Position numbers and translations under genes: made by a program. Of a DNA stretch of 64,000 bases, positions 5,963-25,356 are shown piece by piece. Under the pieces are notes generated by a model. That model saw only the letters and a list, made by a program, of their open reading frames with translations. It was not told the DNA's origin and did not search any database. The stretch covers positions 22,074 through 86,073 of the forward strand of contig CAZJNQ010000003.1 in assembly GCA_964547475.1 (NCBI GenBank), written 5' to 3'. Origin of the DNA: an uncultured Porphyromonadaceae bacterium (GTDB lineage Bacteria > Bacteroidota > Bacteroidia > Bacteroidales > UBA12481). Position 1 is the stretch's first letter. The number at the start of each line of letters is the position of its first letter.

Positions 5963-6120
5963 TTGATTCGAAATTTTCGAGTAATCACGCAAAAATATAA
6001 ATTTGCGTTTTATGAACGTCCGGGTTCACCTGTCTTTTGCCCTGAAAGAGGTTTATCGCAATCTCAAGGAGAGGGACCGCTTCTAAACGGTTCGTTGCGA
6101 TAGATTGGGGGGATAACAAA

Positions 6121-6145
6121 GGAGGAAGGAGGAAGGAGGAAGGAG
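6121..6145. repeat. Tandem heptamer (GGAGGAA) x3.5
   Basis: ggaggaaggaggaaggaggaaggag read directly, in the divergent intergenic region between the DUF3078-like gene and the tnaA-like gene. Confidence 0.9.
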
Positions 6146-6180
6146 AAAGAAAATCCATAGCCTTGTCAACCTCCTGAATT

Positions 6181-6252
6181 TTCTCAACTTTTTCAACCGT
6201 TTCAACCATTTCAACCGTTTCAACCATTTCAACCGTTTCAACCGTTTCAACC
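6181..6252. repeat. Tandem 9-mer (R-TTTCAACC): 7 good copies plus 1 degenerate copy, ending exactly at the tnaA-like ATG
   Basis: Units at 6190, 6199, 6208, 6217, 6226, 6235 and 6244, alternating G/A at the first position. The ATG at 6253 follows the last unit directly. Confidence 0.9.
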
Positions 6253-7629
6253 ATGTTACCACCTTGCGAACCTTATAAAATCAAAATGATTGAGTCCCTC
6301 TACCGGAGTACCCGTGAAGAACGGGAACGGTGGATCAGGGAGGCCTCTTTTAATGTATTCAATCTCAAAAGCGATCAGGTTTTCATTGATTTACTGACCG
6401 ATTCCGGAACCGGTGCCATGAGCGACCGCCAATGGAGTGCCCTGATGACCGGGGACGAATCCTATGCCGGCTCCAGGTCCTTCACACAATTAAAGGATAC
6501 CATCGGGGAATTGCTGGGTTTTGAGTATGTCTTGCCGACCCACCAGGGGCGGGCTGCGGAAAATGTACTGTTTTCCGTGCTGGTCAGGGAAGGCATGCAG
6601 GTTCCGGGTAATGCCCATTTTGACACCACGAAAGGGCATATTGAATTCCGTAAGGGCATAGCGGTGGATTGCACGATAGAGGAAGCCAATAATACCGCGG
6701 TCAATCATCCCTTTAAAGGCAATGTGGATATCGGACGGCTCGAAGCAGCCCTGAAATCCGGAGGAGAAAAAGTAGCTTTTATCCTGATCACAGCAACCTG
6801 CAACACAGCCGGCGGGCAGCCGGTTTCCATCAGGAATATCCGTGAAGTGAGGAAGCTGGCCGATCGTTACGGGAAAATGCTGATCATGGATGCCGCCCGT
6901 TTTGCCGAGAACGCCTTTTTCATCAAAACACGGGAGGAGGAATTCCGGGATCATACGATCCGGCAAATTGTCAGGGAGATGTTCAGCTATTTCGATGCGG
7001 TCACCATGTCATCAAAAAAAGATGGCATTGTCAATATCGGTGGTTTCATTGCCATGAAGGACCAGGAGCTATACAGGCATGCATCGACCTTTACTATCAT
7101 GTTCGAAGGATTCCTGACCTACGGCGGACAAGCCGGCCGGGATATGGCCGCATTGGCCCAGGGACTCAGGGAGTCCACGGAATTCGATTACCTGGAATCG
7201 CGCGTTTGGCAGATCAATTGTCTGGGCAATCTGTTAAAAACGGAGGGAATTCCGGTTCAGGAGCCTTTCGGTGGCCATGCCGTCTACCTGGATGCCCTGC
7301 GTTTCTTAACGAGGGTGCCTCGTGAAGAGTTTCCTGCCCAGACACTTGTCGTCGAACTGTACAGGGAGGGGGGAATACGGTCCGCCGAGATCGGGGCTCT
7401 GATGGCTGACCGTGATCCGGTCACCCGCGAGAACCGCTTTCCGGCCCTGGAAATGGTCAGGCTTGCCATTCCCCGACGAACCTATACGTCGGATCATATG
7501 CATTATGTGGCCGCTGCTGTCGCCCAGGTTTTCCGGCGTGCCGGAGAAATCAGGTCCGGTTACCGTATCGTACGGGAAGCTCCCATCATGCGGCATTTCA
7601 CCGTAGAGCTCATGCCGGTAAACCGCTAA
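6253..7629 (+). CDS. tnaA: Tryptophanase / tyrosine phenol-lyase family beta-eliminating lyase (PLP-dependent)
   Basis: N-terminal EPYKIKMIE...TREERE...FNLKSDQVFIDLLTDSGTGAMSD and PLP-lysine region MSSKKDGIVNIGGF are typical of the TnaA/TPL family. Substrate (Trp vs Tyr) cannot be decided by eye. Confidence 0.8.
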   Translation: MLPPCEPYKIKMIESLYRSTREERERWIREASFNVFNLKSDQVFIDLLTDSGTGAMSDRQWSALMTGDESYAGSRSFTQLKDTIGELLGFEYVLPTHQGRAAENVLFSVLVREGMQVPGNAHFDTTKGHIEFRKGIAVDCTIEEANNTAVNHPFKGNVDIGRLEAALKSGGEKVAFILITATCNTAGGQPVSIRNIREVRKLADRYGKMLIMDAARFAENAFFIKTREEEFRDHTIRQIVREMFSYFDAVTMSSKKDGIVNIGGFIAMKDQELYRHASTFTIMFEGFLTYGGQAGRDMAALAQGLRESTEFDYLESRVWQINCLGNLLKTEGIPVQEPFGGHAVYLDALRFLTRVPREEFPAQTLVVELYREGGIRSAEIGALMADRDPVTRENRFPALEMVRLAIPRRTYTSDHMHYVAAAVAQVFRRAGEIRSGYRIVREAPIMRHFTVELMPVNR

Positions 7630-10600: not shown

Positions 10601-13600
10601 TGTTTTTTGCACCGATTGTAATAACGAGTGTCTCGCCCATCCTGGGATGGTCCGAAGACAGTTCGGCACGAAAAGCTGTTCCTGCAGCCAGGGATGATCC
10701 TGCAGGTTGCCGAAGGTATATGTACTGATCCACCGTGTCAGTTAAAGCAGGATCCTCCGATGACATCCCAACCCGGTACCACCCTTCCTTCCAGGCCTTG
10801 CCGGTGATAATGGTTACAGTGGATGCAGAATCAGACTGGACCTTCATTTCCAACAACCTCGACTCAACCGGAAAATTCTTCACCAGGTGTTCGTTCCTGT
10901 AAGGTAACTGCGGTACCCGCTTGCTCCATTGCTTCTTTGTCATTATGAACCGGTCTGGTTCAGGCAACACGGGGTCGATCCAGGTGCGGCCGGGATCTTT
11001 CAGCCGGCTCAGGGTGACGGTCACCGGAAGGTTCAGCCAGCGGCCATCCGGACTGATTGTCCTGACCCTTGCTTTCAGCGTGTCCCCTATTTTTAGAATA
11101 TCGGGAAACTGTGACTCTAACCTTGCAGATCCTTTCCCGGCAAAGACAGTGACCTGTTCCTCACGAGTTTCACCGTTCCGGTCAGTGACGCGAAAGGTGA
11201 TCTGGTAATTCAGAGGCATCCCGCTGCCGTAAGGGTTGGCAGACTCCGGTATCGATTTCCATTTCCAGGTGAAATTCCCGTTTGAATCGGTGACAACCCG
11301 GGAGGAGTGAATCCTGGCCCTCCTACCCATGACAGGATACCTTCTCCAGGGGCGGTATTGCGGGAGCAGATCGGTTTCAGAAAGCACCTCCGCACCCGGA
11401 ACCGGTTCACCCGACAGTGCGGTCACCTTGCCAGTCACCTCAATCACATCACCATTCAGGTATGCCTGATGACCGCCATCGAGAACAATATCGAAGGAAG
11501 GTCTCCGGTACTGTTCCATGCTGATATTTACGGAACCATTCCTGGTAATCAGCTGGTAAGACCCTGTCAATCCTTTGGGGGGAAGGATAAAGGAACCGCT
11601 GAATACACCGAGGTCATCCACCGGTAGCCGCATTTTCTCAACAATTTGGTATCTGGGATCCTGAAGCGTCAATTCGACCGAATCCTGCCTGTGAATCATG
11701 AGTGAGTCGCCTTTCCGATCCATCAGGATTCCCCTGAAATGAAGGACATCTCCGGGTTTATAAAGTTTTCTGTCGGTATAAATCAAAGTGCTCGTCTGCA
11801 CAACTTTTTCATCCCGCATATAAACCGGGAAAAATGGTTCAGGGGTCAGGAGGGTATCTCCGCCCATGATCAGTTGAAGGCGGTAGGATTTCGGCGACCG
11901 GTCAACGCGATCCATCGCGCCGTCAGGGATTGCGAGATATCCTTCTTTTTCGGACAGATAGTTTTGGCCCCGTTCGAATTCATATCTGCGTTTCTCCGGA
12001 GAATAAGTGACAAACCAGGGAATCGCCAAAAGGCCTTGAAGGGAGGCTCCTGATTGGCGGTCGCGCAGGTAGAAAGTCCGGACTCCCTGATTCTTCTGGC
12101 TGGTTATCAAGGTTATGCGACTGACCGAAAGCGGAATGGTGAGTACTTTGGCTGTACGGAAATCCCAATCCGGTTCATTCGAAAAGCTGATCAAATAAAA
12201 TCCGGGAGCCAGTGGCCCCAGGAGGATATTCACCCGGTGTGGGTTCCTGTCCCCGTCATCGGGAATGGTTTCTGAGCCTTCCTCCTGTGGCGTGAGCAAA
12301 TCCAGTCGGGTCAGCTTTTCTGACTGGTCCATCTCATTCCACCGGGAGAAATACTCCAATGCGTTGAACCTGAATATCCTGTAATATATCCTGTGGATAT
12401 TCCTGGATTCAATGCTTGAGGGGAAAGCCCTGCCCGGTAACTGAACCGCTTCGACCTGGGCATGAAAGTCCGGTTCGAGGAGATCCGACAGCAGATTCCG
12501 GCAGTTTCTGCCGGCGGTGGTTTCATCCCACAGAATCGCTTTTCCAAGCCATCCTTCTGCCTTTTTCCTTTCTCTTTTAAACTTCAGCGTATCCTCATGG
12601 TTGATGGCGTATCTCTGTCCCATCCCCAGGTGATATTCCGCCAGGGCTTCATAGAGAATGGCGGCGTCCGCGGTTTTTTCTCTGCCGGCTGCCATTTTTT
12701 CCAGGGCTGAAGCATATAAACTGTCCCGATGGGGATGGCACGACTTTTCATAGACATATTTCAGCCTCATCAGGTCAGCCGTCAGCCGGCTATTTGAATA
12801 AAACAGCCAATCGCCGTACCACCTTAATGCCTGGTACCAGGGATTGCTGCTGTTCAGTTCCTCCTCCGGAATCGCTTTCAGAAACCGGTCGGATTCCATA
12901 AACAGCTCTTCCGAACAGAGGATGGACGGGCGCAGGGAGGCTACCGTAAAACTTTCTGATGAATTCAGGAATTCAAGGGCGCGGCGCATCAGGATATCAT
13001 ATACTGCAGGACTGTTAGCGGTATCCTTCAGGCTGCCGGTCCACAGGCCTTTGACGGAAGAGACGGGGATCTGGGAAAGCTTGCCCGGATAAGCCAGCGA
13101 TTTCCGGTAACAATCCAGGATCACACGGTAAAAATTCCCTGGCCCCCATAGCTTGAGTTGCTCTTTCAGTTCCCTTTTCTTTATCCCTTCCTCTTCAATC
13201 TTTGTCTCCGGACGCTGGCTGATATCCCAGCGATTGACCATATAATACCTTTGGTAAAGTTCTCCGAGCATGGAAAATTTCAGCGCTGTGGGAACCAGCC
13301 TGTCATCCGCGGGTTCCCTTTCCAGCAATTCGATGGCTGCTTCCTGCCCCTCCTCCTCGAGTTCCTGAGTGTATTTCAAACGGTAGATCAATGACCGGAT
13401 CTCGTTTTCCTGGTCCATATCCCTTCTTGCATCCCGGTAAACTCCATCCACGAGCGACAGAGCCGAACGATACAAGCCCTGGCCTTCCAATGAATCGATC
13501 TTTTTCCATACCAACTCTTTATCCTGCCGGATATCGAAGGTCTTTGATACAGCAGTCACCGCCACTATCGGGATAACTGTCAGGACGGATAAATACAGGA

Positions 13601-13610
13601 TTTTATTCAT
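7626..13610 (-). CDS. Alpha-2-macroglobulin family large protein (1994 aa), no CxEQ thioester motif
   Basis: Signal or anchor N-terminus. Long series of Ig-like MG-type segments and size typical of the ~1900-2000-aa Bacteroidota A2M-like proteins. The thioester position reads CSEY (9252-9263). Confidence 0.75.
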   Translation of the reverse strand: MNKILYLSVLTVIPIVAVTAVSKTFDIRQDKELVWKKIDSLEGQGLYRSALSLVDGVYRDARRDMDQENEIRSLIYRLKYTQELEEEGQEAAIELLEREPADDRLVPTALKFSMLGELYQRYYMVNRWDISQRPETKIEEEGIKKRELKEQLKLWGPGNFYRVILDCYRKSLAYPGKLSQIPVSSVKGLWTGSLKDTANSPAVYDILMRRALEFLNSSESFTVASLRPSILCSEELFMESDRFLKAIPEEELNSSNPWYQALRWYGDWLFYSNSRLTADLMRLKYVYEKSCHPHRDSLYASALEKMAAGREKTADAAILYEALAEYHLGMGQRYAINHEDTLKFKRERKKAEGWLGKAILWDETTAGRNCRNLLSDLLEPDFHAQVEAVQLPGRAFPSSIESRNIHRIYYRIFRFNALEYFSRWNEMDQSEKLTRLDLLTPQEEGSETIPDDGDRNPHRVNILLGPLAPGFYLISFSNEPDWDFRTAKVLTIPLSVSRITLITSQKNQGVRTFYLRDRQSGASLQGLLAIPWFVTYSPEKRRYEFERGQNYLSEKEGYLAIPDGAMDRVDRSPKSYRLQLIMGGDTLLTPEPFFPVYMRDEKVVQTSTLIYTDRKLYKPGDVLHFRGILMDRKGDSLMIHRQDSVELTLQDPRYQIVEKMRLPVDDLGVFSGSFILPPKGLTGSYQLITRNGSVNISMEQYRRPSFDIVLDGGHQAYLNGDVIEVTGKVTALSGEPVPGAEVLSETDLLPQYRPWRRYPVMGRRARIHSSRVVTDSNGNFTWKWKSIPESANPYGSGMPLNYQITFRVTDRNGETREEQVTVFAGKGSARLESQFPDILKIGDTLKARVRTISPDGRWLNLPVTVTLSRLKDPGRTWIDPVLPEPDRFIMTKKQWSKRVPQLPYRNEHLVKNFPVESRLLEMKVQSDSASTVTIITGKAWKEGWYRVGMSSEDPALTDTVDQYIYLRQPAGSSLAAGTAFRAELSSDHPRMGETLVITIGAKNKSYVFTELLLPHGLTEQVWSRTGRTIMEKSWKVDPSWQGGGVIHLVMLQDNRVYEKRFNLIIPWQNKNLTLKGFDDVGRVKPGDSIRLLLRLADENGNPVRASIGITVYDASLDKILPFGWAVPKWPDFTERPVCNVMTPVSVASSLLLSPESPRVDVPYTEPLQMNWWGMGFYGIDRMDRPMMKAATGRVNPVAEDAALQSVNEEEAGGAAGISKDDGAAMKSEGAAIEIRQDFRETALFNGSLVTNPDGTAELAFKVPEVFTEWKMLVTGHTSAMSTVLAEHRFRSAKDLMLKPHFPLFARIGDTLNLAARLGWYGDGTVEPVSLLTARNLLSRDLKTWKPIASRLTKGNAALMTWELTVDKPGDLRYELVSSDGKVQDGLADTIDIYPDQVELWRSLPFYLNEPGSKEIKVTGEAREAILEVVTTPAWQVLQSLPVIIGKERDCSEYWYSRLYLAGVTGLIADRMPEVSRFYLDNPPEVILDSLSHPMLRNQAIKGTDWASSPWNRVEGNEKARVLQIREWMDRDKRDKEMAFVLEKLISMRNPDGSWPWFRGMGSDWFTTQMILAGLGEMKAWKILDIMSSQRGRTIINETISALDGRMSKQFREIMKTDSLGRQKTHLDPLLIHYLYARSFYAGTIFTPEDEIAWIHFMERIPKEWMYHEPGLQAILAIACIQSGKTAFAVPIYKSLRERMKQSDEMGFYWPRKGFASSWHQWDLWMQSRMIELFAALEEGRKDLDQLRLYLVHQKRGRDWGNGMVAAWAARSLLFYGSDWTVQPAKVEIRWGKEQISPLRIKTSSTGPTGYYRMNWDQQESVPADESLKLFSQGGRPAWGTLYTRENHSLDQLSATDGPLQVRRELLCQDDQGNWGQLRKGQQVRVGQMLKIRIILTSDRELSYLELKDFLAAGFAPVRVLSGFHYKAGLQWYQAREPESVVFYLPFIPKGQQTIEYEVVAEQAGRYFGGYSTIQCLYAPEFRAWSGSVRIHAGS

Positions 13611-13686
13611 GGCCCTTTTTTTTCTGATGCAATGATCCTGCCAAAGTTAATCATCCGTCAGAATTCCGGGGATTGACCGATTCTCT

Positions 13687-13694
13687 TAACTTTG
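13687..13694 (+). promoter_or_regulatory. Candidate -7 box TAACTTTG for yicC-gmk-nadD
   Basis: Exact TAnnTTTG match 20 nt upstream of the ATG at 13714. -33 element not convincing. Confidence 0.35.
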
Positions 13695-13713
13695 CTTAAA
13701 AATCAATCTTTCT

Positions 13714-14589
13714 ATGTTACGATCCATGACCGGCTTTGGCAAGGCCACTCGTGAGATGGGCAGCCGGACCGTCAATGTCGAAATCAAAAGTCTCAACGCT
13801 AAAGGTTCCGACATTTACCTGAAACTGCCGGCTTTATACCGTGAAGGCGAGAATGAGGTGAGAAATGAGGTAAACCGGATTCTTCTGCGGGGGAAGATTG
13901 AGCTGACCGTGTGGTTTGAATCCGTCGTCACTGAAAAGAGCGTAACCCTCAACGAGGGAGTGATCCTCGACTATTTGTCCCAGTTCAGGAATCTCGAACC
14001 AGCTCTGAACGTGCCTGGGAATGAGGTTTTATTACCGGTAATCATGAGGTTGCCTGATGTGATCAGGGTCGAAAAGCAGGATTTCGATGAAGAGGAATGG
14101 AAGCAGGTAATGGAAACCATTCGTCAATGCATCAGCCAGGTCGGAAGTTTCAGGGTGCAGGAGGGCGCTGCCATTGAGCTGGACTTTAAGGAGCGGATCA
14201 GGATCATCATGGAAGGCGTCGGACGGATCCGAACGATTGAAAAAATCAGGATTGACCGCTTGAGGGAAAGGCTTGACCAGGCCATAAAGGAGATATCGGA
14301 AAAAACCAAGGTGGATTCCAACCGGTTTGAGCAGGAGCTGATCTATTACATTGAAAAACTCGATATTAACGAAGAGATGGTCAGATTAAGCAACCATTGC
14401 GACTATTTCCTTGAAACCATGGAGAAAGAGGAGAGCCAGGGACGGAAGCTTGGTTTCATTTCCCAGGAAATCGGCCGGGAGATCAATACCATCGGTTCTA
14501 AAGCCAATGATTCGGACATTCAGCGGATCGTGGTGGAAATGAAAGACGAACTGGAAAAGATCAAGGAGCAGGCGCTGAACGTGCTATAA
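13714..14589 (+). CDS. yicC: YicC/YloC family protein
   Basis: MLRSMTGFGKA start, ~290 aa, and C-terminal FISQEIGREINTIGSKAND motif. Confidence 0.88.
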   Translation: MLRSMTGFGKATREMGSRTVNVEIKSLNAKGSDIYLKLPALYREGENEVRNEVNRILLRGKIELTVWFESVVTEKSVTLNEGVILDYLSQFRNLEPALNVPGNEVLLPVIMRLPDVIRVEKQDFDEEEWKQVMETIRQCISQVGSFRVQEGAAIELDFKERIRIIMEGVGRIRTIEKIRIDRLRERLDQAIKEISEKTKVDSNRFEQELIYYIEKLDINEEMVRLSNHCDYFLETMEKEESQGRKLGFISQEIGREINTIGSKANDSDIQRIVVEMKDELEKIKEQALNVL

Positions 14590-14593
14590 ACAA

Positions 14594-14645
14594 AAGGCAG
14601 AAGGCAGAAGGCAGAAGGCAAAAGGAAAGGGTAAAGGAAAAAGAA
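14594..14645. repeat. Tandem heptamer (AAGGCAG) x4 decaying into AAAGGAA-like units
   Basis: aaggcagaaggcagaaggcagaaggcaaaaggaaagggtaaaggaaaaag read directly, between the yicC stop and the gmk start. Confidence 0.85.
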
Positions 14646-14686
14646 ATAAGTTAAAAGAGTGGGGGCTGTTGTTTACCAATGGTTTT

Positions 14687-15265
14687 ATGAAGGGTTATAA
14701 TAAGCTGATCATATTATCCGCTCCATCAGGAGCAGGGAAAACAACGATTGCCCGTCATCTGTTGGTAGCGGGGCTGGGCCTGGAGTTTTCGGTTTCAGCC
14801 TGCAGTCGGGCCAAACGGCCGGGTGAGGTCAATGGCCGGGATTACTATTTCCTCACAACCGATGAATTCAGGAAAAGCATTGAAGCTGGCTGTTTCGTTG
14901 AATGGGAAGAAGTCTATCCGGGCCAGTTCTACGGGACACTGAAATCGGAAATTGAACGGATCCACCATAAAGGTCTGTCAGTCCTTTTCGATGTGGATGT
15001 CAAAGGTGCGCTGTCACTCAAGAGGATATACGGAGAGCAGGCCCTGTCTGTTTTTATCATGCCACCTTCGCTCGAAGTGCTGAAAGAGAGATTGGAAAAA
15101 CGCGGGACTGATTCGCCGGAAAAGGTACGGATCCGGCTGGCCAAGGCGGAGATCGAGATGTTGTATGTTTCAAAATTTGATGCTGTCATAGTGAATGACC
15201 AACTAGAACCGGCTTTATCACAGGCTGAAACCCTGGTCAGGAGTTTCCTGAATGACAAAGGCTAA
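14687..15265 (+). CDS. gmk: Guanylate kinase
   Basis: P-loop SAPSGAGKTT, then RPGEVNGRDYYF. The track start at 14669 is a TTG; the first ATG is at 14687. Confidence 0.9.
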   Translation: MKGYNKLIILSAPSGAGKTTIARHLLVAGLGLEFSVSACSRAKRPGEVNGRDYYFLTTDEFRKSIEAGCFVEWEEVYPGQFYGTLKSEIERIHHKGLSVLFDVDVKGALSLKRIYGEQALSVFIMPPSLEVLKERLEKRGTDSPEKVRIRLAKAEIEMLYVSKFDAVIVNDQLEPALSQAETLVRSFLNDKG

Positions 15266-15896
15266 GCATATCGGTTTATTTTTCGGATCGTTTAATCCGA
15301 TCCATAACGGGCATCTGATGATCGCCAACTGGATGGCGGAATTCAGTGGTCTTGAGCAGGTGTGGTTTGTGATCAGCCCGCAGAGCCCTTTCAAAAGGCG
15401 ACAAAACCTGCTGGCTGGTTACCACCGGATGGAACTGGTGAACCGTGCTATTTCCGATTACCCCGGGTTCAGGGCTTCCGACATTGAAAGCAAGCTGCCA
15501 ACCCCCTCCTATACCATTGATACCCTTGTCTATCTGACCGAGCGATATCCGGATCACGTGTTTACGCTGATCATGGGTTCAGACCAACTCCCTGATTTCC
15601 ATCGGTGGAAAAATGCGGAGCATATCCTTGACCGGTACAAAGCCCTGGTTTATCCCAGGCAGGAAGGCAAGCGTAGAGCCGAGAGCGATATGAGTGACAA
15701 GGATAGAGTCAATCCTGCCGGACGCTTGACGACCCACGATCTCCTGAACCACCCGTCGATCAAGCTGGTGGAGGCGCCAATGATTGAAGTTTCATCCAGC
15801 TTTATCCGTAAATCGATCAAGCAGGGCAAAGACGTACGGTTCTTCGTACCCCCGGCAGTATGGGAGTACATGAGGGAGATGCATTTTTACGAGTGA
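15252..15896 (+). CDS. nadD: Nicotinate-nucleotide adenylyltransferase
   Basis: GLFFGSFNPIHNGHL (HxGH-type motif) and SSSFIR near the C-terminus. Overlaps gmk by 14 nt. Confidence 0.9.
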   Translation: MTKAKHIGLFFGSFNPIHNGHLMIANWMAEFSGLEQVWFVISPQSPFKRRQNLLAGYHRMELVNRAISDYPGFRASDIESKLPTPSYTIDTLVYLTERYPDHVFTLIMGSDQLPDFHRWKNAEHILDRYKALVYPRQEGKRRAESDMSDKDRVNPAGRLTTHDLLNHPSIKLVEAPMIEVSSSFIRKSIKQGKDVRFFVPPAVWEYMREMHFYE

Positions 15897-15983
15897 CTCA
15901 TGACTCGTGACTCGTGACTCGTGACTCGTGACTCGTGACTCGTGATTCGTGATTCGTGATTCGTGACTCGTGACTCGTGACTA
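15894..15983. repeat. Tandem heptamer array (TGACTCG / TGATTCG), ~13 units, filling the whole convergent spacer
   Basis: Parsed unit by unit: TGACTCA, 6x TGACTCG, 3x TGATTCG, 2x TGACTCG, TGACTA. The first unit contains the nadD TGA stop and the last contains the complement of the VOC-gene TAG stop. Confidence 0.95.
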
Positions 15984-17054
15984 ACCTTTAAAGCGATTGA
16001 AGCGGATGCCTTTAACGAGCCAGTCAGGCAGGTTCTTAAGGGGATCACGTTTTTTCATATCGACGTAAATCCCCAATTTCTTGAGGATTGGAACCCGGTG
16101 TGTCTCAACAAATTCTATCAAGGTCCCGTCGGGATCTTCGATATAGCTGAAATGTCCGGCTGCACTACCCATGCCGAAAGATTCGTCAAGTTTTTTTGCA
16201 CTGTCGACTGTGAAAGGGAATCCTTTATCCTCGCATTCTTTCTTCAGATGATGCATCCCCTGGATATCAAAACACAAATGAATGAATCCCAGGTCACCCC
16301 ACAGCCGGTTCTTAAAAATATATTCAGGTTTGCGGTTCAGAGCCTGTAATAGTTCGATCTGGCTCTCACCGAAAAGCCGGCTGAATCCGCCGGTTCGCTT
16401 TTCACTGTGGCTCAGCAGGACTCTTCTGAATTTTCCGGTTCCGCCGGGTAAGTGATAGAAATCGGCAAATTCACCCGTCTGATCGTATTCGACCCGGTCA
16501 TATCCGAGAATACCTGAATAAACCTTACTCGCACGCTCTATGTTGCTCACCCCGATGATCGCTCCGTAGGTTCCGCCTCCGTGCTTCTTGTCGTCGTGGA
16601 ACCAGGAACTTCCTTCCACAACCTCAAAAATATTGTTGAACGGGTCCTTTACGAAAAAATGTTCCTTCCCATCGGGTGTGAGCGAGATATCCCCCAGAAT
16701 CCGGGCTCCTCCCTCCAGGATAGCCTCATAGCTTTCACGAACAATCCTTGACTTGACTTTGGCGGCAAAGATGCCGAGATCGCCGGCCTGAAGGGTAAAC
16801 GCCGGAGCCTGAGGAACCCGTTTTTTGTACTGCCATATTTCAAAGCCGCCTCCACCCTGAAGGTTGACAGCGAGAGCAGCAAGTCTCTCCCGTGGCTCAC
16901 CACCGGTATAGGGCAGCATCAGTTCGGCTACGGCCTCATCCTCGAAAATGCGGATATCCATCCCAAAATTATTCCGGTACCACTTCCACGCTTCCTTCAG
17001 GTTCTCCACTCCTATCCCGATTTGCTGTATGCCCGTTATTCTTTTTTCATTCAT
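15981..17054 (-). CDS. VOC (glyoxalase/bleomycin-resistance/dioxygenase) superfamily protein, multi-domain
   Basis: GIQQIGIGVENLKEAWKWY and repeated GxxHLCF-like VOC modules. Function unknown. Confidence 0.65.
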   Translation of the reverse strand: MNEKRITGIQQIGIGVENLKEAWKWYRNNFGMDIRIFEDEAVAELMLPYTGGEPRERLAALAVNLQGGGGFEIWQYKKRVPQAPAFTLQAGDLGIFAAKVKSRIVRESYEAILEGGARILGDISLTPDGKEHFFVKDPFNNIFEVVEGSSWFHDDKKHGGGTYGAIIGVSNIERASKVYSGILGYDRVEYDQTGEFADFYHLPGGTGKFRRVLLSHSEKRTGGFSRLFGESQIELLQALNRKPEYIFKNRLWGDLGFIHLCFDIQGMHHLKKECEDKGFPFTVDSAKKLDESFGMGSAAGHFSYIEDPDGTLIEFVETHRVPILKKLGIYVDMKKRDPLKNLPDWLVKGIRFNRFKG

Positions 17055-17134
17055 ATTCTGATATTAGGTCACAAATATAAGGGTATCAACTCAGTTCCAC
17101 AGGTTTTATTATTTTCGCCATGAAAGATTAAGCC

Positions 17135-17947
17135 ATGAAAACCCTGAAAGATAAAGTCGTTTGGATCACCGGAGCTTCTTCCGGAATTGGTGAGGCGCTT
17201 GCTCAGGTGTGTGCGGGGGAGGGCGCAAGACTGGTTCTGACTGCCAGGCGTGAAGAGGAACTTCTGAGGGTGGCCAGGCAGACGCAGCTTCCTGAAGAGT
17301 CCCTGTTTATCCTGCCGGCCGACCTTTCGCAGTACGATCAGGCTGGAAACCTCGCCAGGCAGGTCATGGAACATTTCGGGCGGATCGATGTACTTTTCAA
17401 TAACGCCGGAATAAGCAGCCGGGCCATTGCGTTGGAGTCTCCGGTTGAGATCGATCGCAAGGTCATGGACCTCGACTATTTTGGCGCAATCGCCCTGACC
17501 AAGGCAGTGGCTCCTGGCATGGTGGAGCGGAAAGAAGGGCACATCGTTGTCACGTCCAGTGTGATGGGTAAGATCGGAACTCCCATGCGGTCTGCCTATT
17601 CTGCTGCCAAGCATGCGCTTCATGGTTTTTTTGAATCGCTGCGGATGGAAATTGACGGCACGGGAGTCCAGGTAACCATCCTGTGTCCCGGATATATCCA
17701 TACACAGGTATCTGTCAATGCCATTACTGCATCAGGAGCTAAGTTCAACAAGATGAGCCGCTACCAGCAGAACGGAAAAGATGCGGTCCTGTTTGCCCGT
17801 AAGGTCATCAGGGGAATGAAAAAAGGCAAGCATGAAATATCCTATGGCGGGGTTGAAATCCTTGGCCCGTTGCTCTACAGGCTATCCCCGAAAATAGTTC
17901 ACCTATACATGATGAAACAGCAGAAGAAGAGCAGTTACTCGGAATAG
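17135..17947 (+). CDS. Short-chain dehydrogenase/reductase (SDR)
   Basis: TGASSGIGEA cofactor motif, NNAG, catalytic YSAAKHAL. Confidence 0.9.
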   Translation: MKTLKDKVVWITGASSGIGEALAQVCAGEGARLVLTARREEELLRVARQTQLPEESLFILPADLSQYDQAGNLARQVMEHFGRIDVLFNNAGISSRAIALESPVEIDRKVMDLDYFGAIALTKAVAPGMVERKEGHIVVTSSVMGKIGTPMRSAYSAAKHALHGFFESLRMEIDGTGVQVTILCPGYIHTQVSVNAITASGAKFNKMSRYQQNGKDAVLFARKVIRGMKKGKHEISYGGVEILGPLLYRLSPKIVHLYMMKQQKKSSYSE

Positions 17948-17950
17948 AAT

Positions 17951-18026
17951 ATTGGATTTGGGATATTAGATTTTGGATTTGGGACATTAGGGTTTTATAG
18001 AAGGTTTTATCCCGAATCCCGAATCC
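17951..18026. repeat. Mosaic of three 2-copy tandem repeats (TTGGATTTGGGAYATTAG x2; GGTTTTAT x2; CCCGAAT x2) with inverted complementarity
   Basis: Read directly. GGATTTGGG (17954, 17975) can pair with CCCGAATCC (18011, 18018), with one G-U pair on the + strand RNA. It fills the convergent spacer between the SDR gene and the OFOR gamma gene. Confidence 0.8.
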
Positions 18027-18029
18027 ATC

Positions 18030-18572
18030 TTACACCTTCTCCACTATTTTCTGTCCTTCCCCGATCGCCTTCATGTTTTGTTCCAGAAGGTGACTGTATC
18101 TTTTCGGTATCGATTTCTCCAGTCCTTTATACACATTCTGAATCTCGACGATAGGCTTGATCTTCAGGAATGCTCCGAGAACGATCATGTTAAAAGTCTT
18201 GGTACTGCCGATCTTACCGGCAGCATCTGCAGCGTCCACCCGGTAAATCCGGATATCCTTTCTTTCAGGATGGCGTGTGATGCCATTCGAGTCATAGAGC
18301 AATATACCGCCGGGTTTCACGGATCTCTCGAATTTATCGAGCGACTGCTGATTCAGGAGAATGGCGGAATCATAGAGTTGAAGAACCGGGGAACTGATCC
18401 GGGTGTCACTCAGGATGACGGTTACATTAGCAGTTCCGCCCCGCATTTCCGGGCCATAGGAAGGGAACCAGCTGACTTCCTGATTCTGCATGATGCCTGA
18501 ATAGGCCAGGATCTTTCCCATCGAAAGGACACCTTGCCCTCCAAAACCGGCTATAATGATCTCTTCAGTCAT
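18030..18572 (-). CDS. 2-oxoacid:ferredoxin oxidoreductase, gamma subunit
   Basis: IIIAGFGGQGVLSMGKIL N-terminus typical of OFOR gamma subunits. Confidence 0.88.
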   Translation of the reverse strand: MTEEIIIAGFGGQGVLSMGKILAYSGIMQNQEVSWFPSYGPEMRGGTANVTVILSDTRISSPVLQLYDSAILLNQQSLDKFERSVKPGGILLYDSNGITRHPERKDIRIYRVDAADAAGKIGSTKTFNMIVLGAFLKIKPIVEIQNVYKGLEKSIPKRYSHLLEQNMKAIGEGQKIVEKV

Positions 18573-18586
18573 TTTTTGAGGTTAAA

Positions 18587-19369
18587 TTATTGATTAACAA
18601 CCAGTTTCCCATCCACCTTGATATCACCAAGCGGATAATAGGGAAACATATTCTGTTCCATCCATTCGTTGGCTTTAACGGGTTCCAGCTTCCAGCCCGA
18701 ATTGCAGTTGGAAACGATTTCAACCAAGGAGAGGCCTTTTTTTGCCAGTTGAACTTCAACAGCGGTACGGATGGCCTTCTTGGTCCGCCTGACATTTCTT
18801 GGAGAGTGGACTGATTGACGTGTAACATAATGCACACCAGGCAAGTGAGCAACCAGTTCAGTCATTTTGATGGGGTGACCCATGCTCTGGATCTCACGCC
18901 CGAATGGGCTGGTCGAGGTTTTCATCCCTACGAGGGTAGTCGGGGCCATCTGGCCTCCCGTCATGCCATAGATTCCGTTATTGATAAAAATTATGGTGAT
19001 GTTCTCACCCCGGTTGCAGGCATGGATGGTTTCCGCGGTTCCAATGGCAGCCAGATCTCCGTCTCCCTGATAAGTGAAAACGAATTTGTCCGGCCAGCAT
19101 CTCTTTATACCCGTTGCAACGGCGGGTGCCCGGCCATGCGCCGCACCCAGCATGTCCACATCCATGAAATCATAGGCCAGTACAGAACATCCTACCGGAG
19201 CCACACCGATTGTCTCAGACTGGAGATCCATTTCCTCGAGAACTTCCATGAGTACACGGTGAGCCGTACCGTGACCGCAACCGGGACAATAGCTCAGGGT
19301 TTTATCGGTCATCAGCCCGGTTTTCTTGTAAACCAGGTTTTCGGGTTTGATGATATCCTTTATATCCAT
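18587..19369 (-). CDS. 2-oxoacid:ferredoxin oxidoreductase, beta (TPP-binding) subunit
   Basis: CPGCGHG, then GDGD...IFINNGIYGMTGGQ TPP-binding motif. Confidence 0.9.
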   Translation of the reverse strand: MDIKDIIKPENLVYKKTGLMTDKTLSYCPGCGHGTAHRVLMEVLEEMDLQSETIGVAPVGCSVLAYDFMDVDMLGAAHGRAPAVATGIKRCWPDKFVFTYQGDGDLAAIGTAETIHACNRGENITIIFINNGIYGMTGGQMAPTTLVGMKTSTSPFGREIQSMGHPIKMTELVAHLPGVHYVTRQSVHSPRNVRRTKKAIRTAVEVQLAKKGLSLVEIVSNCNSGWKLEPVKANEWMEQNMFPYYPLGDIKVDGKLVVNQ

Positions 19370-25304: not shown

Positions 25305-25356
25305 CATTTACGATTGATCATTTACGATTCACGAATCACTGATCGCGAATCACTAG
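25305..25356. repeat. Two adjacent 14-bp tandem duplications (CATTTACGATTSAY x2, then GAATCACTGATCGC x1.7)
   Basis: Read directly. Contains the palindrome GATTCACGAATC (25326-25337). The last unit overlaps the TAG stop (complement) of the TonB-dependent receptor. Confidence 0.85.

What the first reader, a model, noticed from the sequence alone, without database searches (positions are those of the whole stretch)
15894..15983. Thirteen-unit heptanucleotide array (TGACTCG/TGATTCG) forms the entire spacer between convergent genes and embeds both stop codons
- The 90-bp spacer between nadD (+) and the VOC gene (-) is nothing but tandem 7-mers.
- The nadD TGA is the first three bases of unit 1. 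The complement of the VOC TAG lies in the last unit.
- A block of three TGATTCG variants sits inside the TGACTCG run, consistent with local slippage.
- The array has no self-complementarity, so it cannot act as a hairpin terminator.
- Heptamer tandem arrays in intergenic DNA are the hallmark of cyanobacterial STRR elements and are not something I associate with Bacteroidota.
- This window contains several other spacers built the same way with different units: 6121-6252, 14594-14645, 17951-18026 and 25305-25356. That argues for a genome-wide process.
Basis: seen in the sequence. Interest (0 to 1): 0.6.

Follow-up and report, generated by a model that had tools for sequence, protein, structure and literature searches.

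The report
Strain-variable heptamer microsatellite between two genes
The 90-base gap between the nadD and glyoxalase-family genes is a real seven-base tandem repeat that gains and loses whole units between strains. It is one of about 600 such arrays in this uncultured Bacteroidales genome, and it belongs to a repeat class already described in cyanobacteria, Xanthomonas and some Bacteroidetes whose function is still unknown.

Summary
Window 15894-15983 reads TGACTCA, TGACTCG x6, TGATTCG x3, TGACTCG x2, TGACTA. This fills the whole gap between the nadD stop (TGA, first three bases of unit 1) and the VOC stop (CTA at 15981-15983).

- **Not an artefact.** Two other metagenome assemblies carry the identical array.
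- **Strain variation.** A third strain (2.3% SNPs) has 6.7 units instead of 12.9, and one TGATTCG instead of three. All four heptamer arrays in the 7.1-kb overlap differ by multiples of 7 nt.
- **Genome-wide excess.** There are 599 period-7 arrays (329 TRF rows at score >=50, against 0 in a shuffled genome).
- **Family context.** GTGACTC arrays (about 85 loci) are often the first module of an ordered mosaic: (GTGACTC)n, a REP hairpin CCCCAGACTGAAGTCTGGGG, (CTTTTTC)n, then (CTTYTGC)n.
- **Same spacer, other units.** In genus relatives the same nadD-VOC spacer holds different heptamers, palindromes or nothing.

It has no hairpin or terminator character. MutS and MutL are intact.

Verdict: a slippage-prone heptanucleotide simple-sequence repeat of the LSSR/STRR type, a new member of a known kind. 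Function is unproven.

The parts
15894..15983 (+). Heptanucleotide array: TGACTCA, TGACTCG x6, TGATTCG x3, TGACTCG x2, TGACTA. It forms the whole nadD-VOC spacer.
   Evidence: Identical in two other assemblies. Six units shorter in a strain with 2.3% SNPs.
15943..15963 (+). Block of three variant units, TGATTCG. The other strain has a single TGATTCG.
15252..15896 (+). nadD (nicotinate-nucleotide adenylyltransferase-like). Its TGA stop (15894-15896) is the start of unit 1. The C-terminus ...EMHFYE* is conserved in the genus, so the stop is older than the array.
15981..17054 (-). VOC / glyoxalase-superfamily gene (357 aa, two domains). Its TAG stop is CTA at 15981-15983, at the last truncated unit. 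The C-terminus ...FNRFKG* and the CTA are conserved in G012 and G017.
14591..14643 (+). (AAGGCAG)n decaying into AAAGGxx units between yicC and gmk. This is the reverse complement of the (CTTTTTC)n-(CTTYTGC)n modules of the mosaic. It differs by +7 nt in the other strain.
17952..18026 (.). TTGGATT-type array (17952-17984) and ATCCCGA array (18009-18026) in the SDR / POR-gamma convergent spacer. They differ by -21 and +7 nt in the other strain.
6119..6252 (+). (AAGGAGG) x4.4 followed by a 9-mer array (TTTCAACCG x6.9) that runs up to an ATG.
25324..25353 (.). Weak, degenerate ACGAATC-type array (69% matches). It is a decayed relative of the GTGATTC family.

Best explanation
This is a heptanucleotide simple-sequence repeat of the prokaryotic LSSR type, the class that includes cyanobacterial STRR. 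It occupies the short, unconstrained gap between the two ancestral stop codons of convergent nadD and VOC.

**How it changes.** Whole 7-nt units are gained and lost, most likely by strand slippage at replication. Unequal exchange between units is the alternative. Variant units are born by point mutation and then amplified locally. Coding sequence on both sides limits the array's extent, which is why it fills the spacer exactly.

**Family.** It belongs to a family of about 85 loci, GTGACTC with variants GTGATTC, GTGAATC and GTGACTG. Elsewhere in the genome this family is the first module of a dispersed mosaic: (GTGACTC)n, a REP hairpin, (CTTTTTC)n, (CTTYTGC)n. This copy is a solo module.

**Orientation.** The strand facing nadD carries TGA in all three frames. 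That is the only orientation tolerated when an array touches or overlaps a stop codon.

**What it is not.** It is not a hairpin terminator and not a phase-variation switch.

**Shown versus inferred.** Shown here: the anatomy, the unit-wise polymorphism, the genome-wide and genus-wide excess, and the mosaic order. Inferred: slippage as the mechanism, and that the array is tolerated 3'-spacer DNA rather than a selected device.
For: **Anatomy and non-randomness**
- for the array; for the shuffled genome (0 period-7 rows at score >=50, against 329 real).

**Unit-wise change between strains**
- The window and metagenome contig Ga0172368_10000369 differ by 164 SNPs and 5 indels in 7.1 kb. Four indels are +7, -42, -21 and +7 nt, and they lie exactly in the four heptamer arrays.
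- Two assemblies at 99.8-99.9% identity carry the same array. The change is therefore slow, not of phase-variation speed.

**Genome-wide and genus-wide**
- 599 merged period-7 arrays cover 23.5 kb.
- Sampled genus relatives have 0-16 arrays of score >=50 per 100 kb, with other units. One of the 12 sampled genomes outside the genus had a single such array.

**The same spacer in relatives**
- G012: CCGGCAA x12. G017: the same unit, about x5. G007: CCNCTAA x7.
- G009 and G011: palindromes. G008: about 0 nt. G004: a short spacer without repeats.
- The flanking stops and C-termini are conserved.

**Mosaic order**
- Near a hairpin, 22 of 23 GACTCGT arrays lie upstream, 23 of 23 CCTTTTT arrays lie downstream, and 32 of 37 CTGCCTT/GCCTTTT arrays lie downstream.

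**Stop-codon filter**
- 52 long ORFs end inside GTGAC-oriented arrays.
- When the stop lies before the array, orientation is 16:11, which is unbiased.

**Other checks**
- No hairpin or terminator. No Rfam hit.
- Published precedent for the same placement and the same between-species turnover: Rehm 2015 and MacGregor 2015.
Against: - Slippage itself was not observed. Raw reads were unavailable, so within-population heterogeneity is unknown.
- Pure in-situ slippage does not explain why about 85 loci share one unit and the same variant units. It also does not explain why mosaic copies share non-repeat junctions (TACGAAAGT..., TTAGTCATA). Some copying between loci must occur.
- The purine-rich families show a strong polarity that a stop-codon filter cannot explain. 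Purine is on the mRNA-like strand next to stops in 99 cases against 10, and in 45 against 2 in convergent spacers. These units carry no stop codon in either orientation. Selection or a transcription-linked bias therefore acts on at least part of the system.
- The preference for period 7 itself remains unexplained. MutS and MutL are intact.
Confidence: 0.8

Rival explanations
1. The array is a selected, orientation-dependent 3'-end element. Transcribed as (GUGACUC)n in the nadD 3' UTR, or read as single-stranded DNA or RNA by a protein that binds one heptad per monomer (Csp- or S1-like OB folds), it would set mRNA 3'-end stability or insulate the two convergent transcription units from each other.
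For: - 47% of arrays (196 of 419) have a long-ORF stop inside them or within 10 nt.
- The purine-rich families show strong strand polarity next to stops, including in convergent spacers (45:2).
- AAGGCAG and CGTGAC-type arrays sit in the same orientation after stops in genus relatives, though the sample is small.
- The same spacer is occupied again and again in different species.
- The same placement rule is reported in Xanthomonas and Nostoc.
Against: - For the GTGACTC family, polarity disappears once stops inside the array are set aside (16:11).
- The unit sequence is not conserved between species, and 0 of 40 relatives carry 4 x GACTCGT.
- Copy number halves between strains.
- The spacer is empty or holds a palindrome in other relatives that have the same two genes.
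- The RNA has no structure beyond shuffles.
Confidence: 0.12
2. The array did not arise in place. It would be a solo remnant, or a directly copied module, of the mobile mosaic element (heptamer arrays plus REP hairpin) that spreads with a RAYT-type single-strand transposase or by recombination between arrays. Slippage would only have remodelled it afterwards.
For: - The identical unit and the same variant units occur at about 85 loci.
- Mosaic copies share non-repeat junction sequences and a fixed module order.
- The hairpin has 130 copies here and 1-26 copies in 11 of 18 genus genomes, with compensatory stem changes.
- In G014 the hairpin flanks a Y1_Tnp gene on both sides in inverted orientation, and in G006 it lies 143 nt upstream of one.
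- In G012/G017 and G007 the spacer's arrays have different units and the opposite strand sense, which argues for independent colonisations.
Against: - This locus has no hairpin, no conserved flank and no target duplication.
- 62 of 85 GACTCGT arrays lie more than 150 nt from any hairpin.
- The only Y1_Tnp gene in this genome (C34:1380-1826) is flanked by different palindromes.
- No transposition mechanism is known to carry tandem heptamers.
Confidence: 0.3
3. The array is an assembly artefact: collapsed or chimeric short reads.
For: About 106 period-7 arrays lie at contig ends, so long arrays do break this assembly.
Against: - This 90-nt array lies inside a 97-kb contig.
- It is identical in two independent metagenome assemblies, and present with six fewer units in a third.
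Confidence: 0.01
4. The array is a contingency (phase-variation) repeat whose copy number switches expression of nadD or VOC.
For: Copy number differs between strains in whole units.
Against: - It lies between two stop codons. It is not in a promoter, a 5' UTR or a reading frame, so unit changes cannot shift a frame or alter promoter spacing.
- It is unchanged in near-identical strains.
- Both genes are housekeeping-type.
Confidence: 0.02

Closest known systems
Prokaryotic long simple-sequence repeats with 5-11-nt units, heptanucleotide class (Mrazek, Guo & Shah 2007, as summarised in PMC4679880 and PMC4692102)
   Same: - Head-to-tail 7-nt units, mostly intergenic.
- A genome-wide excess of period 7 over periods 6 and 8.
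- A scattered, lineage-specific distribution.
- Polymerase slippage is the proposed source.
   Different: - The density here is very high: 599 arrays, 0.74% of a 3.17-Mb genome.
- The main unit families occur in a fixed order around a REP hairpin.
- A Bacteroidales genus is not among the genomes named in the summaries of that survey read here.
G-rich heptamer repeats GGGAATC (Xanthomonas) and GGGGA(T/C)T (Nostoc PCC 7120, the STRR type), Rehm et al. 2015, PMC4692102
   Same: - They sit 0-50 nt after stop codons or overlap them.
[quoted passage not shown]
- They are dispersed on both chromosome strands.
   Different: - GTGACTC has no G-run, so it has no G-quadruplex potential.
- For this unit family the polarity is explained by its TGA content.
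- The phylum is different.
TAACTGA heptamer repeats of Beggiatoaceae, cyanobacteria and five Bacteroidetes (MacGregor 2015, PMC4679880)
   Same: - Intergenic heptamer arrays.
- Long arrays, and several different heptamers in one spacer, are reported in Gramella forsetii, Aequorivita and Elizabethkingia.
- Close relatives lack the repeats at the same spacer.
- The arrays break assemblies.
   Different: - The unit sequence differs.
- In Beggiatoa the TAACTGA sets lie mainly just upstream of start codons in the forward orientation. This array lies between two stops.
REP / BIME mosaic elements with RAYT transposases of Proteobacteria (own knowledge: Nunvar 2010; Bertels & Rainey 2011; Ton-Hoang 2012)
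   Same: - Elsewhere in this genome, arrays of the same family abut a 20-nt palindrome with more than 100 copies.
- In relatives this palindrome flanks a Y1 (IS200-like) transposase gene in inverted orientation.
- The elements sit at gene 3' ends.
   Different: - The array at 15894-15983 has no palindrome.
- BIMEs are not known to include tandem heptamer modules.
- No RAYT gene flanked by this hairpin was found in this assembly.

Membership tests
Heptanucleotide LSSR (Mrazek 2007 sense) | Tandem head-to-tail repeat of a 5-11-nt unit, longer than chance allows | tested here: met
   12.9 copies, 95% matches, TRF score 152. The shuffled genome gives no period-7 row at score >=50.
Heptanucleotide LSSR (Mrazek 2007 sense) | Genome-wide excess of period 7 over neighbouring periods, mostly outside genes | tested here: met
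   At score >=50 there are 329 rows of period 7, against 5 of period 6 and 53 of period 8. Most arrays lie between crude ORFs. At least 14 lie in frame inside long ORFs.
Heptanucleotide LSSR (Mrazek 2007 sense) | Copy number varies in whole units between strains | tested here: met
   A 42-nt difference (6 units) at this array, and 7-, 21- and 7-nt differences at the three other arrays in the overlap.
Cyanobacterial STRR (Mazel 1990; own knowledge) | Unit is one of the STRR sequences (CCCCAGT, TTGGTCA, CAACAGT and relatives) in a heterocystous cyanobacterium | tested here: not met
   The unit is GTGACTC. The same-genus genomes are titled Bacteroidales and Porphyromonadaceae MAGs.
G4-forming heptamer SSR (Rehm 2015) | A G-run in each unit, giving quadruplex potential | tested here: not met
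   No GG dinucleotide occurs in TGACTCG or TGATTCG.
G4-forming heptamer SSR (Rehm 2015) | Placed within 0-50 nt of a stop codon or overlapping it; same spacer in related species with a different length and sequence | tested here: met
Intrinsic (hairpin) terminator | G+C-rich inverted repeat followed by a T-run | tested here: not met
   No terminator-like site in the spacer. No inverted repeat beyond 9-nt imperfect arms. Folding z = -0.54 and +2.25.
Contingency / phase-variation SSR | The repeat lies in a reading frame or between promoter elements, so that unit changes switch expression | tested here: not met
   It lies between two stop codons of convergent genes.
REP / BIME | An imperfect palindrome of about 20-40 nt present in many copies | tested here: not met
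   There is no palindrome at this locus, and none of the CCCCAGACT-type hairpins in the whole of contig C3, which holds the window. This is met at other loci of the same array family.
REP / BIME | A cognate RAYT (Y1 transposase) gene flanked by the palindromes | tested here: inconclusive
   Met in relative G014 (hairpins on both sides, inverted) and in G006 (143 nt upstream; the contig ends inside the gene). The single Y1_Tnp in this genome is flanked by other palindromes.
CRISPR array | Repeats of 24-48 nt separated by unique spacers | tested here: not met
   The 7-nt units are contiguous, with no spacers.

The most novel reading that the evidence does not exclude
The heptamer arrays and the REP hairpin together would form a modular, two-sided 3'-end device that Bacteroidales use in place of classical terminators.

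- Each gene end receives an array in a fixed sense.
- The centre is a bidirectional hairpin.
- A heptad-periodic single-strand-binding protein, or Rho acting on the C/U-rich antisense strand, reads the arrays to stop convergent and antisense transcription.
- A RAYT-like enzyme spreads the modules.

The nadD-VOC array would then be a minimal one-module insulator, not debris.
Probability: 0.1. Interest if true: 0.7.

Novelty: new member of a known kind. Interest (0 to 1): 0.35.

Why it matters
Heptamer arrays have been known since the cyanobacterial STRR work of 1990 and still have no demonstrated origin or function.

This genome is an unusually dense and tractable case:
- about 600 arrays in 3.2 Mb;
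- a small vocabulary of units in a fixed order round a REP hairpin;
- strain pairs that show unit-wise change;
- a genus in which the same spacer has been colonised several times by different units.

That makes two questions testable. Why 7 nt? And are the arrays selected 3'-end elements or tolerated slippage products?

Practically, these arrays fragment short-read assemblies (about 106 lie at contig ends) and create spurious ORFs and start extensions in annotation.

Tried and rejected
- **Mismatch-repair loss as the cause.** Rejected. MutS (973-aa frame) and MutL (600-aa frame) are intact here, MutS is found in all 19 genus genomes and MutL in 15 of them.
- **Known RNA family.** No Rfam match in window 13000-19000. 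Only sub-threshold chance hits appear on mosaic loci.
- **Hairpin terminator or promoter in the spacer.** None found.
- **Same unit in relatives.** 4 x GACTCGT occurs in 0 of 40 related genomes, so the unit is species-specific although the phenomenon is not.
- **Sense/antisense bias of GTGACTC arrays.**
  - The first crude test on tandem gene pairs showed none (19:17).
  - A later test seemed to show strong polarity (40:6).
  - This is traced to ORFs that end on the array's own TGA. With the stop before the array the ratio is 16:11. I do not claim an RNA-level polarity for this family.
- **First crude gene caller.** It put 233 arrays "in coding" because stop-free arrays extend ORFs. This was corrected by masking the arrays.
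- **Cognate RAYT for the CCCCAGACT hairpin in this genome.** Not found.
- **More of the second strain's contig.** The record is not held by the genome search.
- **53-aa minus-strand ORF 15887-16048.** It reads through the array (HESRVTS repeats). It is a by-product of the stop-free strand, not a gene.

Full report
**1. The observation**

Window 15894-15983 reads TGACTCA, TGACTCG x6, TGATTCG x3, TGACTCG x2, TGACTA. TRF scores it as period 7, 12.9 copies, 95% matches, score 152.

- nadD (15252-15896, +) matches Pfam CTP_transf_like at 2.9e-21.
- A 357-aa protein with two glyoxalase/VOC domains lies on the minus strand at 15981-17054.
- The nadD TGA is bases 1-3 of unit 1.
- The VOC TAG is CTA at 15981-15983. 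Its C and T are repeat bases. The A is where the last unit departs from the consensus.

The spacer holds nothing else. It has no inverted repeat beyond 9-nt imperfect arms that involve nadD's last codons and no terminator-like site. As RNA it folds no better than shuffles (z = -0.54 on the + strand, +2.25 on the - strand).

**2. Not chance, not an artefact**

On the whole 3.17-Mb, 168-contig assembly, TRF gives 631 period-7 rows. This compares with 86 of period 6 and 215 of period 8. At score >=50 the counts are 329, 5 and 53, with further peaks at periods 14 and 21. A locally shuffled genome gives 55 period-7 rows at score >=30 and none at >=50.

Merged, there are 599 arrays covering 23.5 kb.

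The commonest units, rotated and strand-collapsed, are AAAAAGG (87), ACGAGTC which equals GACTCGT (86), AAGGCAG (42), AAAGGAG (34), AAGGAGG (33) and AAAAGGC (31).

The array is identical in two independent JGI metagenome assemblies (Ga0209610_1001828 and Ga0136653_10001210). These match the window at 99.9% and 99.8% over 5.6 and 3.7 kb, with no gaps.

**3. Unit-wise change between strains**

A third metagenome contig (Ga0172368_10000369) aligns to window 11472-18572 with 164 SNPs (2.3%) and five indels. Four of the five indels are multiples of seven, and they fall exactly in the four heptamer arrays of the overlap.

| Window position | Difference in the other strain |
|---|---|
| 14626 | +7 nt |
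| 15912 (this array) | -42 nt |
| 17952 | -21 nt |
| 18009 | +7 nt |

At this array the other strain has 6.7 units instead of 12.9. It has one TGATTCG instead of three, and TGACTCG instead of TGACTCA as the first unit.

So all four arrays changed at 2.3% divergence and none changed at 0.1-0.2%. This is microsatellite-type instability, far slower than phase variation.

**4. The same spacer in relatives**

Same-genus genomes carry titles such as "Bacteroidales bacterium" and "uncultured Porphyromonadaceae bacterium". Their nadD is 56-68% identical to this one by tblastn.

The nadD C-terminus ...EMHFYE* and the VOC C-terminus ...FNRFKG* with its CTA are conserved, so both stops are older than the array. 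Between them the spacer differs from species to species.

| Genome | Content of the nadD-VOC spacer |
|---|---|
| G000 (this one) | (TGACTCG) x13 |
| G012 | (CCGGCAA/CTGGTAA) x12 |
| G017 | the same unit, about x5 |
| G007 | (CCNCTAA) x7 |
| G009, G011 | palindromic hairpins |
| G008 | essentially no spacer |
| G004 | short spacer, no repeats |

The exact unit (4 x GACTCGT) is absent from 40 related genomes. Sampled genus members nevertheless have 0-16 period-7 arrays of score >=50 per 100 kb, against about 10 here, and they use other units. Of the 12 sampled genomes outside the genus, one had a single such array.

The trait therefore belongs to part of a genus. The units turn over quickly, and this spacer has been occupied more than once.

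**5.

Aligning the flanks of GTGACTC-type arrays shows a recurring composite:

(GTGACTC)n - TACGAAAGT - [CCCCAGACTGAAGTCTGGGG TTAGTCATA + about 17 nt] x1-8 - (CTTTTTC)n - (CTTYTGC)n.

Within 150 nt of a hairpin the order is nearly invariant.
- 22 of 23 GACTCGT arrays lie upstream.
- 23 of 23 CCTTTTT arrays lie downstream.
- 32 of 37 CTGCCTT/GCCTTTT arrays lie downstream.

The hairpin has 130 copies here (at most one mismatch), 1-26 copies in 11 of 18 genus genomes, and two matches on one contig of a single genome among the 22 sampled outside the genus. Its stem shows compensatory variants: AGAC/GTCT, GGAC/GTCC and AGGC/GCCT.

In G014 the hairpin flanks a Y1_Tnp (IS200-like) gene on both sides in inverted orientation. 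In G006 it lies 143 nt upstream of one. It therefore behaves as a REP with a RAYT-type transposase. The one Y1_Tnp gene in this genome (C34:1380-1826; Pfam 4.9e-21) is flanked by different palindromes.

Most arrays (470 of 599) are not near a hairpin, and contig C3, which holds the window, has none. The nadD-VOC array is a solo first module. The array at 14591-14643 is the reverse complement of the last two modules.

**6. Position and polarity**

Of 419 arrays with score >=40, 196 have the stop of a long ORF inside them or within 10 nt. Nine, like this one, have converging stops on both sides.

Purine-rich arrays next to a stop have the purine strand on the mRNA-like strand in 99 cases against 10, and in 45 against 2 in convergent spacers. 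These units have no stop codon in either orientation, so this polarity is real and unexplained.

For the GTGACTC family an apparent 40:6 polarity is largely a filter effect.
- 52 long ORFs end on the array's own TGA, which exists in only one orientation.
- With the stop before the array the ratio is 16:11.
- In the stop-free orientation, 14 arrays are read through by long ORFs.

My first crude test on tandem gene pairs had shown no bias. I therefore claim only that an array touching a stop must face the gene with its TGA-bearing strand, as it does for nadD.

**7. What it most likely is**

It is a slippage-prone heptanucleotide simple-sequence repeat that has filled an unconstrained 3' gap.

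Mismatch-repair loss is not the cause. No Rfam family matches.

Slippage alone does not explain the shared units, the shared variants or the conserved junctions among loci. Copying between loci, whether by recombination or by REP-linked mobility, must contribute. Whether this particular copy was imported or grew in place cannot be decided.

**8. Comparison with what is known**

- Heptamers are the commonest class of 5-11-nt repeat in prokaryotes, and polymerase slippage is the proposed cause (Mrazek 2007, as summarised).
- Rehm et al. 2015 (PMC4692102) report that the Xanthomonas and Nostoc heptamers lie 0-50 nt after stops on the coding strand or overlap them. They also sit between the same genes in related species with large variation in length and sequence.
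- MacGregor 2015 (PMC4679880) reports long heptamer arrays, several kinds per spacer, in Gramella, Aequorivita and Elizabethkingia. Close relatives lack them and assemblies break at them.

Earlier notes of this scan on this genome and on other uncultured Bacteroidales reach the same classification. I treated them as leads. I tested the copy-number, placement and REP claims on my own loci.

**9. Verdict**

This is a new member of a known kind. The mosaic with a REP hairpin and the repeated colonisation of one spacer are the parts worth carrying forward.

Noticed in passing
window 15660-15740 (nadD residues 137-163); L018-L028: nadD has a hypervariable insertion after the conserved LVYPR motif, 0 to about 50 residues long across the genus. 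It is built of translated short repeats: CGTGACG-type heptamers giving VTRD/SRVTRH in G012, G017, G008 and G002, and a 15-nt repeat giving LLTPN x4 in G011. In this genome it is a degenerate 27-residue remnant.
   Followed up: partly
G000:C67:10282-10319; G000:C63:13720-13794; G000:C26:8607-8681; also C80, C75 and C76: Heptamer arrays in their stop-free orientation lie in frame inside long ORFs and encode HESRVTS-type peptide repeats. Pfam confirmed two hosts: Mfd/TRCF, between the UvrB-interaction and RID domains, with a second RPGDQETK x3 insert before the TRCF domain; and a GH3 beta-glucosidase, inside the C-terminal domain. The other host proteins were not scanned.
   Followed up: partly
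G000 genome-wide (for example C74:12056, C7:35451, C54:3800-4000); L112 (G014:C623): REP-type hairpin CCCCAGACTGAAGTCTGGGG followed by TTAGTCATA. It has 130 copies here, sometimes as 2-8 tandem units of about 45 nt, and 1-26 copies in 11 of 18 genus genomes. In G014 it flanks a Y1_Tnp (RAYT-like) gene on both sides in inverted orientation. No RAYT gene flanked by this hairpin was found in this assembly.
   Followed up: partly
G000:C1:135650-135760; C129:1220-1280; C48:9410; C60:10880: A second palindrome family with a 5' GTAG tag (GTAGCCCCGCATGATTATGCGGGG and variants) is flanked on both sides by GCGTGAT/GCGTGAC heptamers. Related GTAG-type palindromes fill the nadD-VOC spacer in G009 and G011.
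   Followed up: no
G000, contig ends: About 106 of 599 period-7 arrays touch a contig end, against 336 ends in all. Long arrays and tandem hairpin units are a main cause of fragmentation of this assembly, and several are interrupted by runs of N.
   Followed up: no
G000 genome-wide; window 14591-14643: Purine-rich heptamer arrays (AAAAAGG, AAGGCAG, AAAAGGC) next to stop codons have the purine strand on the mRNA-like strand in 99 cases against 10, and in 45 against 2 in convergent spacers. These units have no stop codon in either orientation. AAGGCAG arrays sit the same way in relative G018.
   Followed up: partly
window 6191-6252: A 9-mer array (TTTCAACCG x6.9, with a 27-nt super-period) runs up to the ATG at 6253, directly after an AAGGAGG x4.4 array.
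   Followed up: no
window 15887-16048 (-): The stop-free strand of the array creates a spurious 53-aa ORF (…HESRVTNHESRITSHESRVTSHESRVMSHS). Across the genome such arrays extend ORFs and start codons and mislead simple gene callers.
   Followed up: yes
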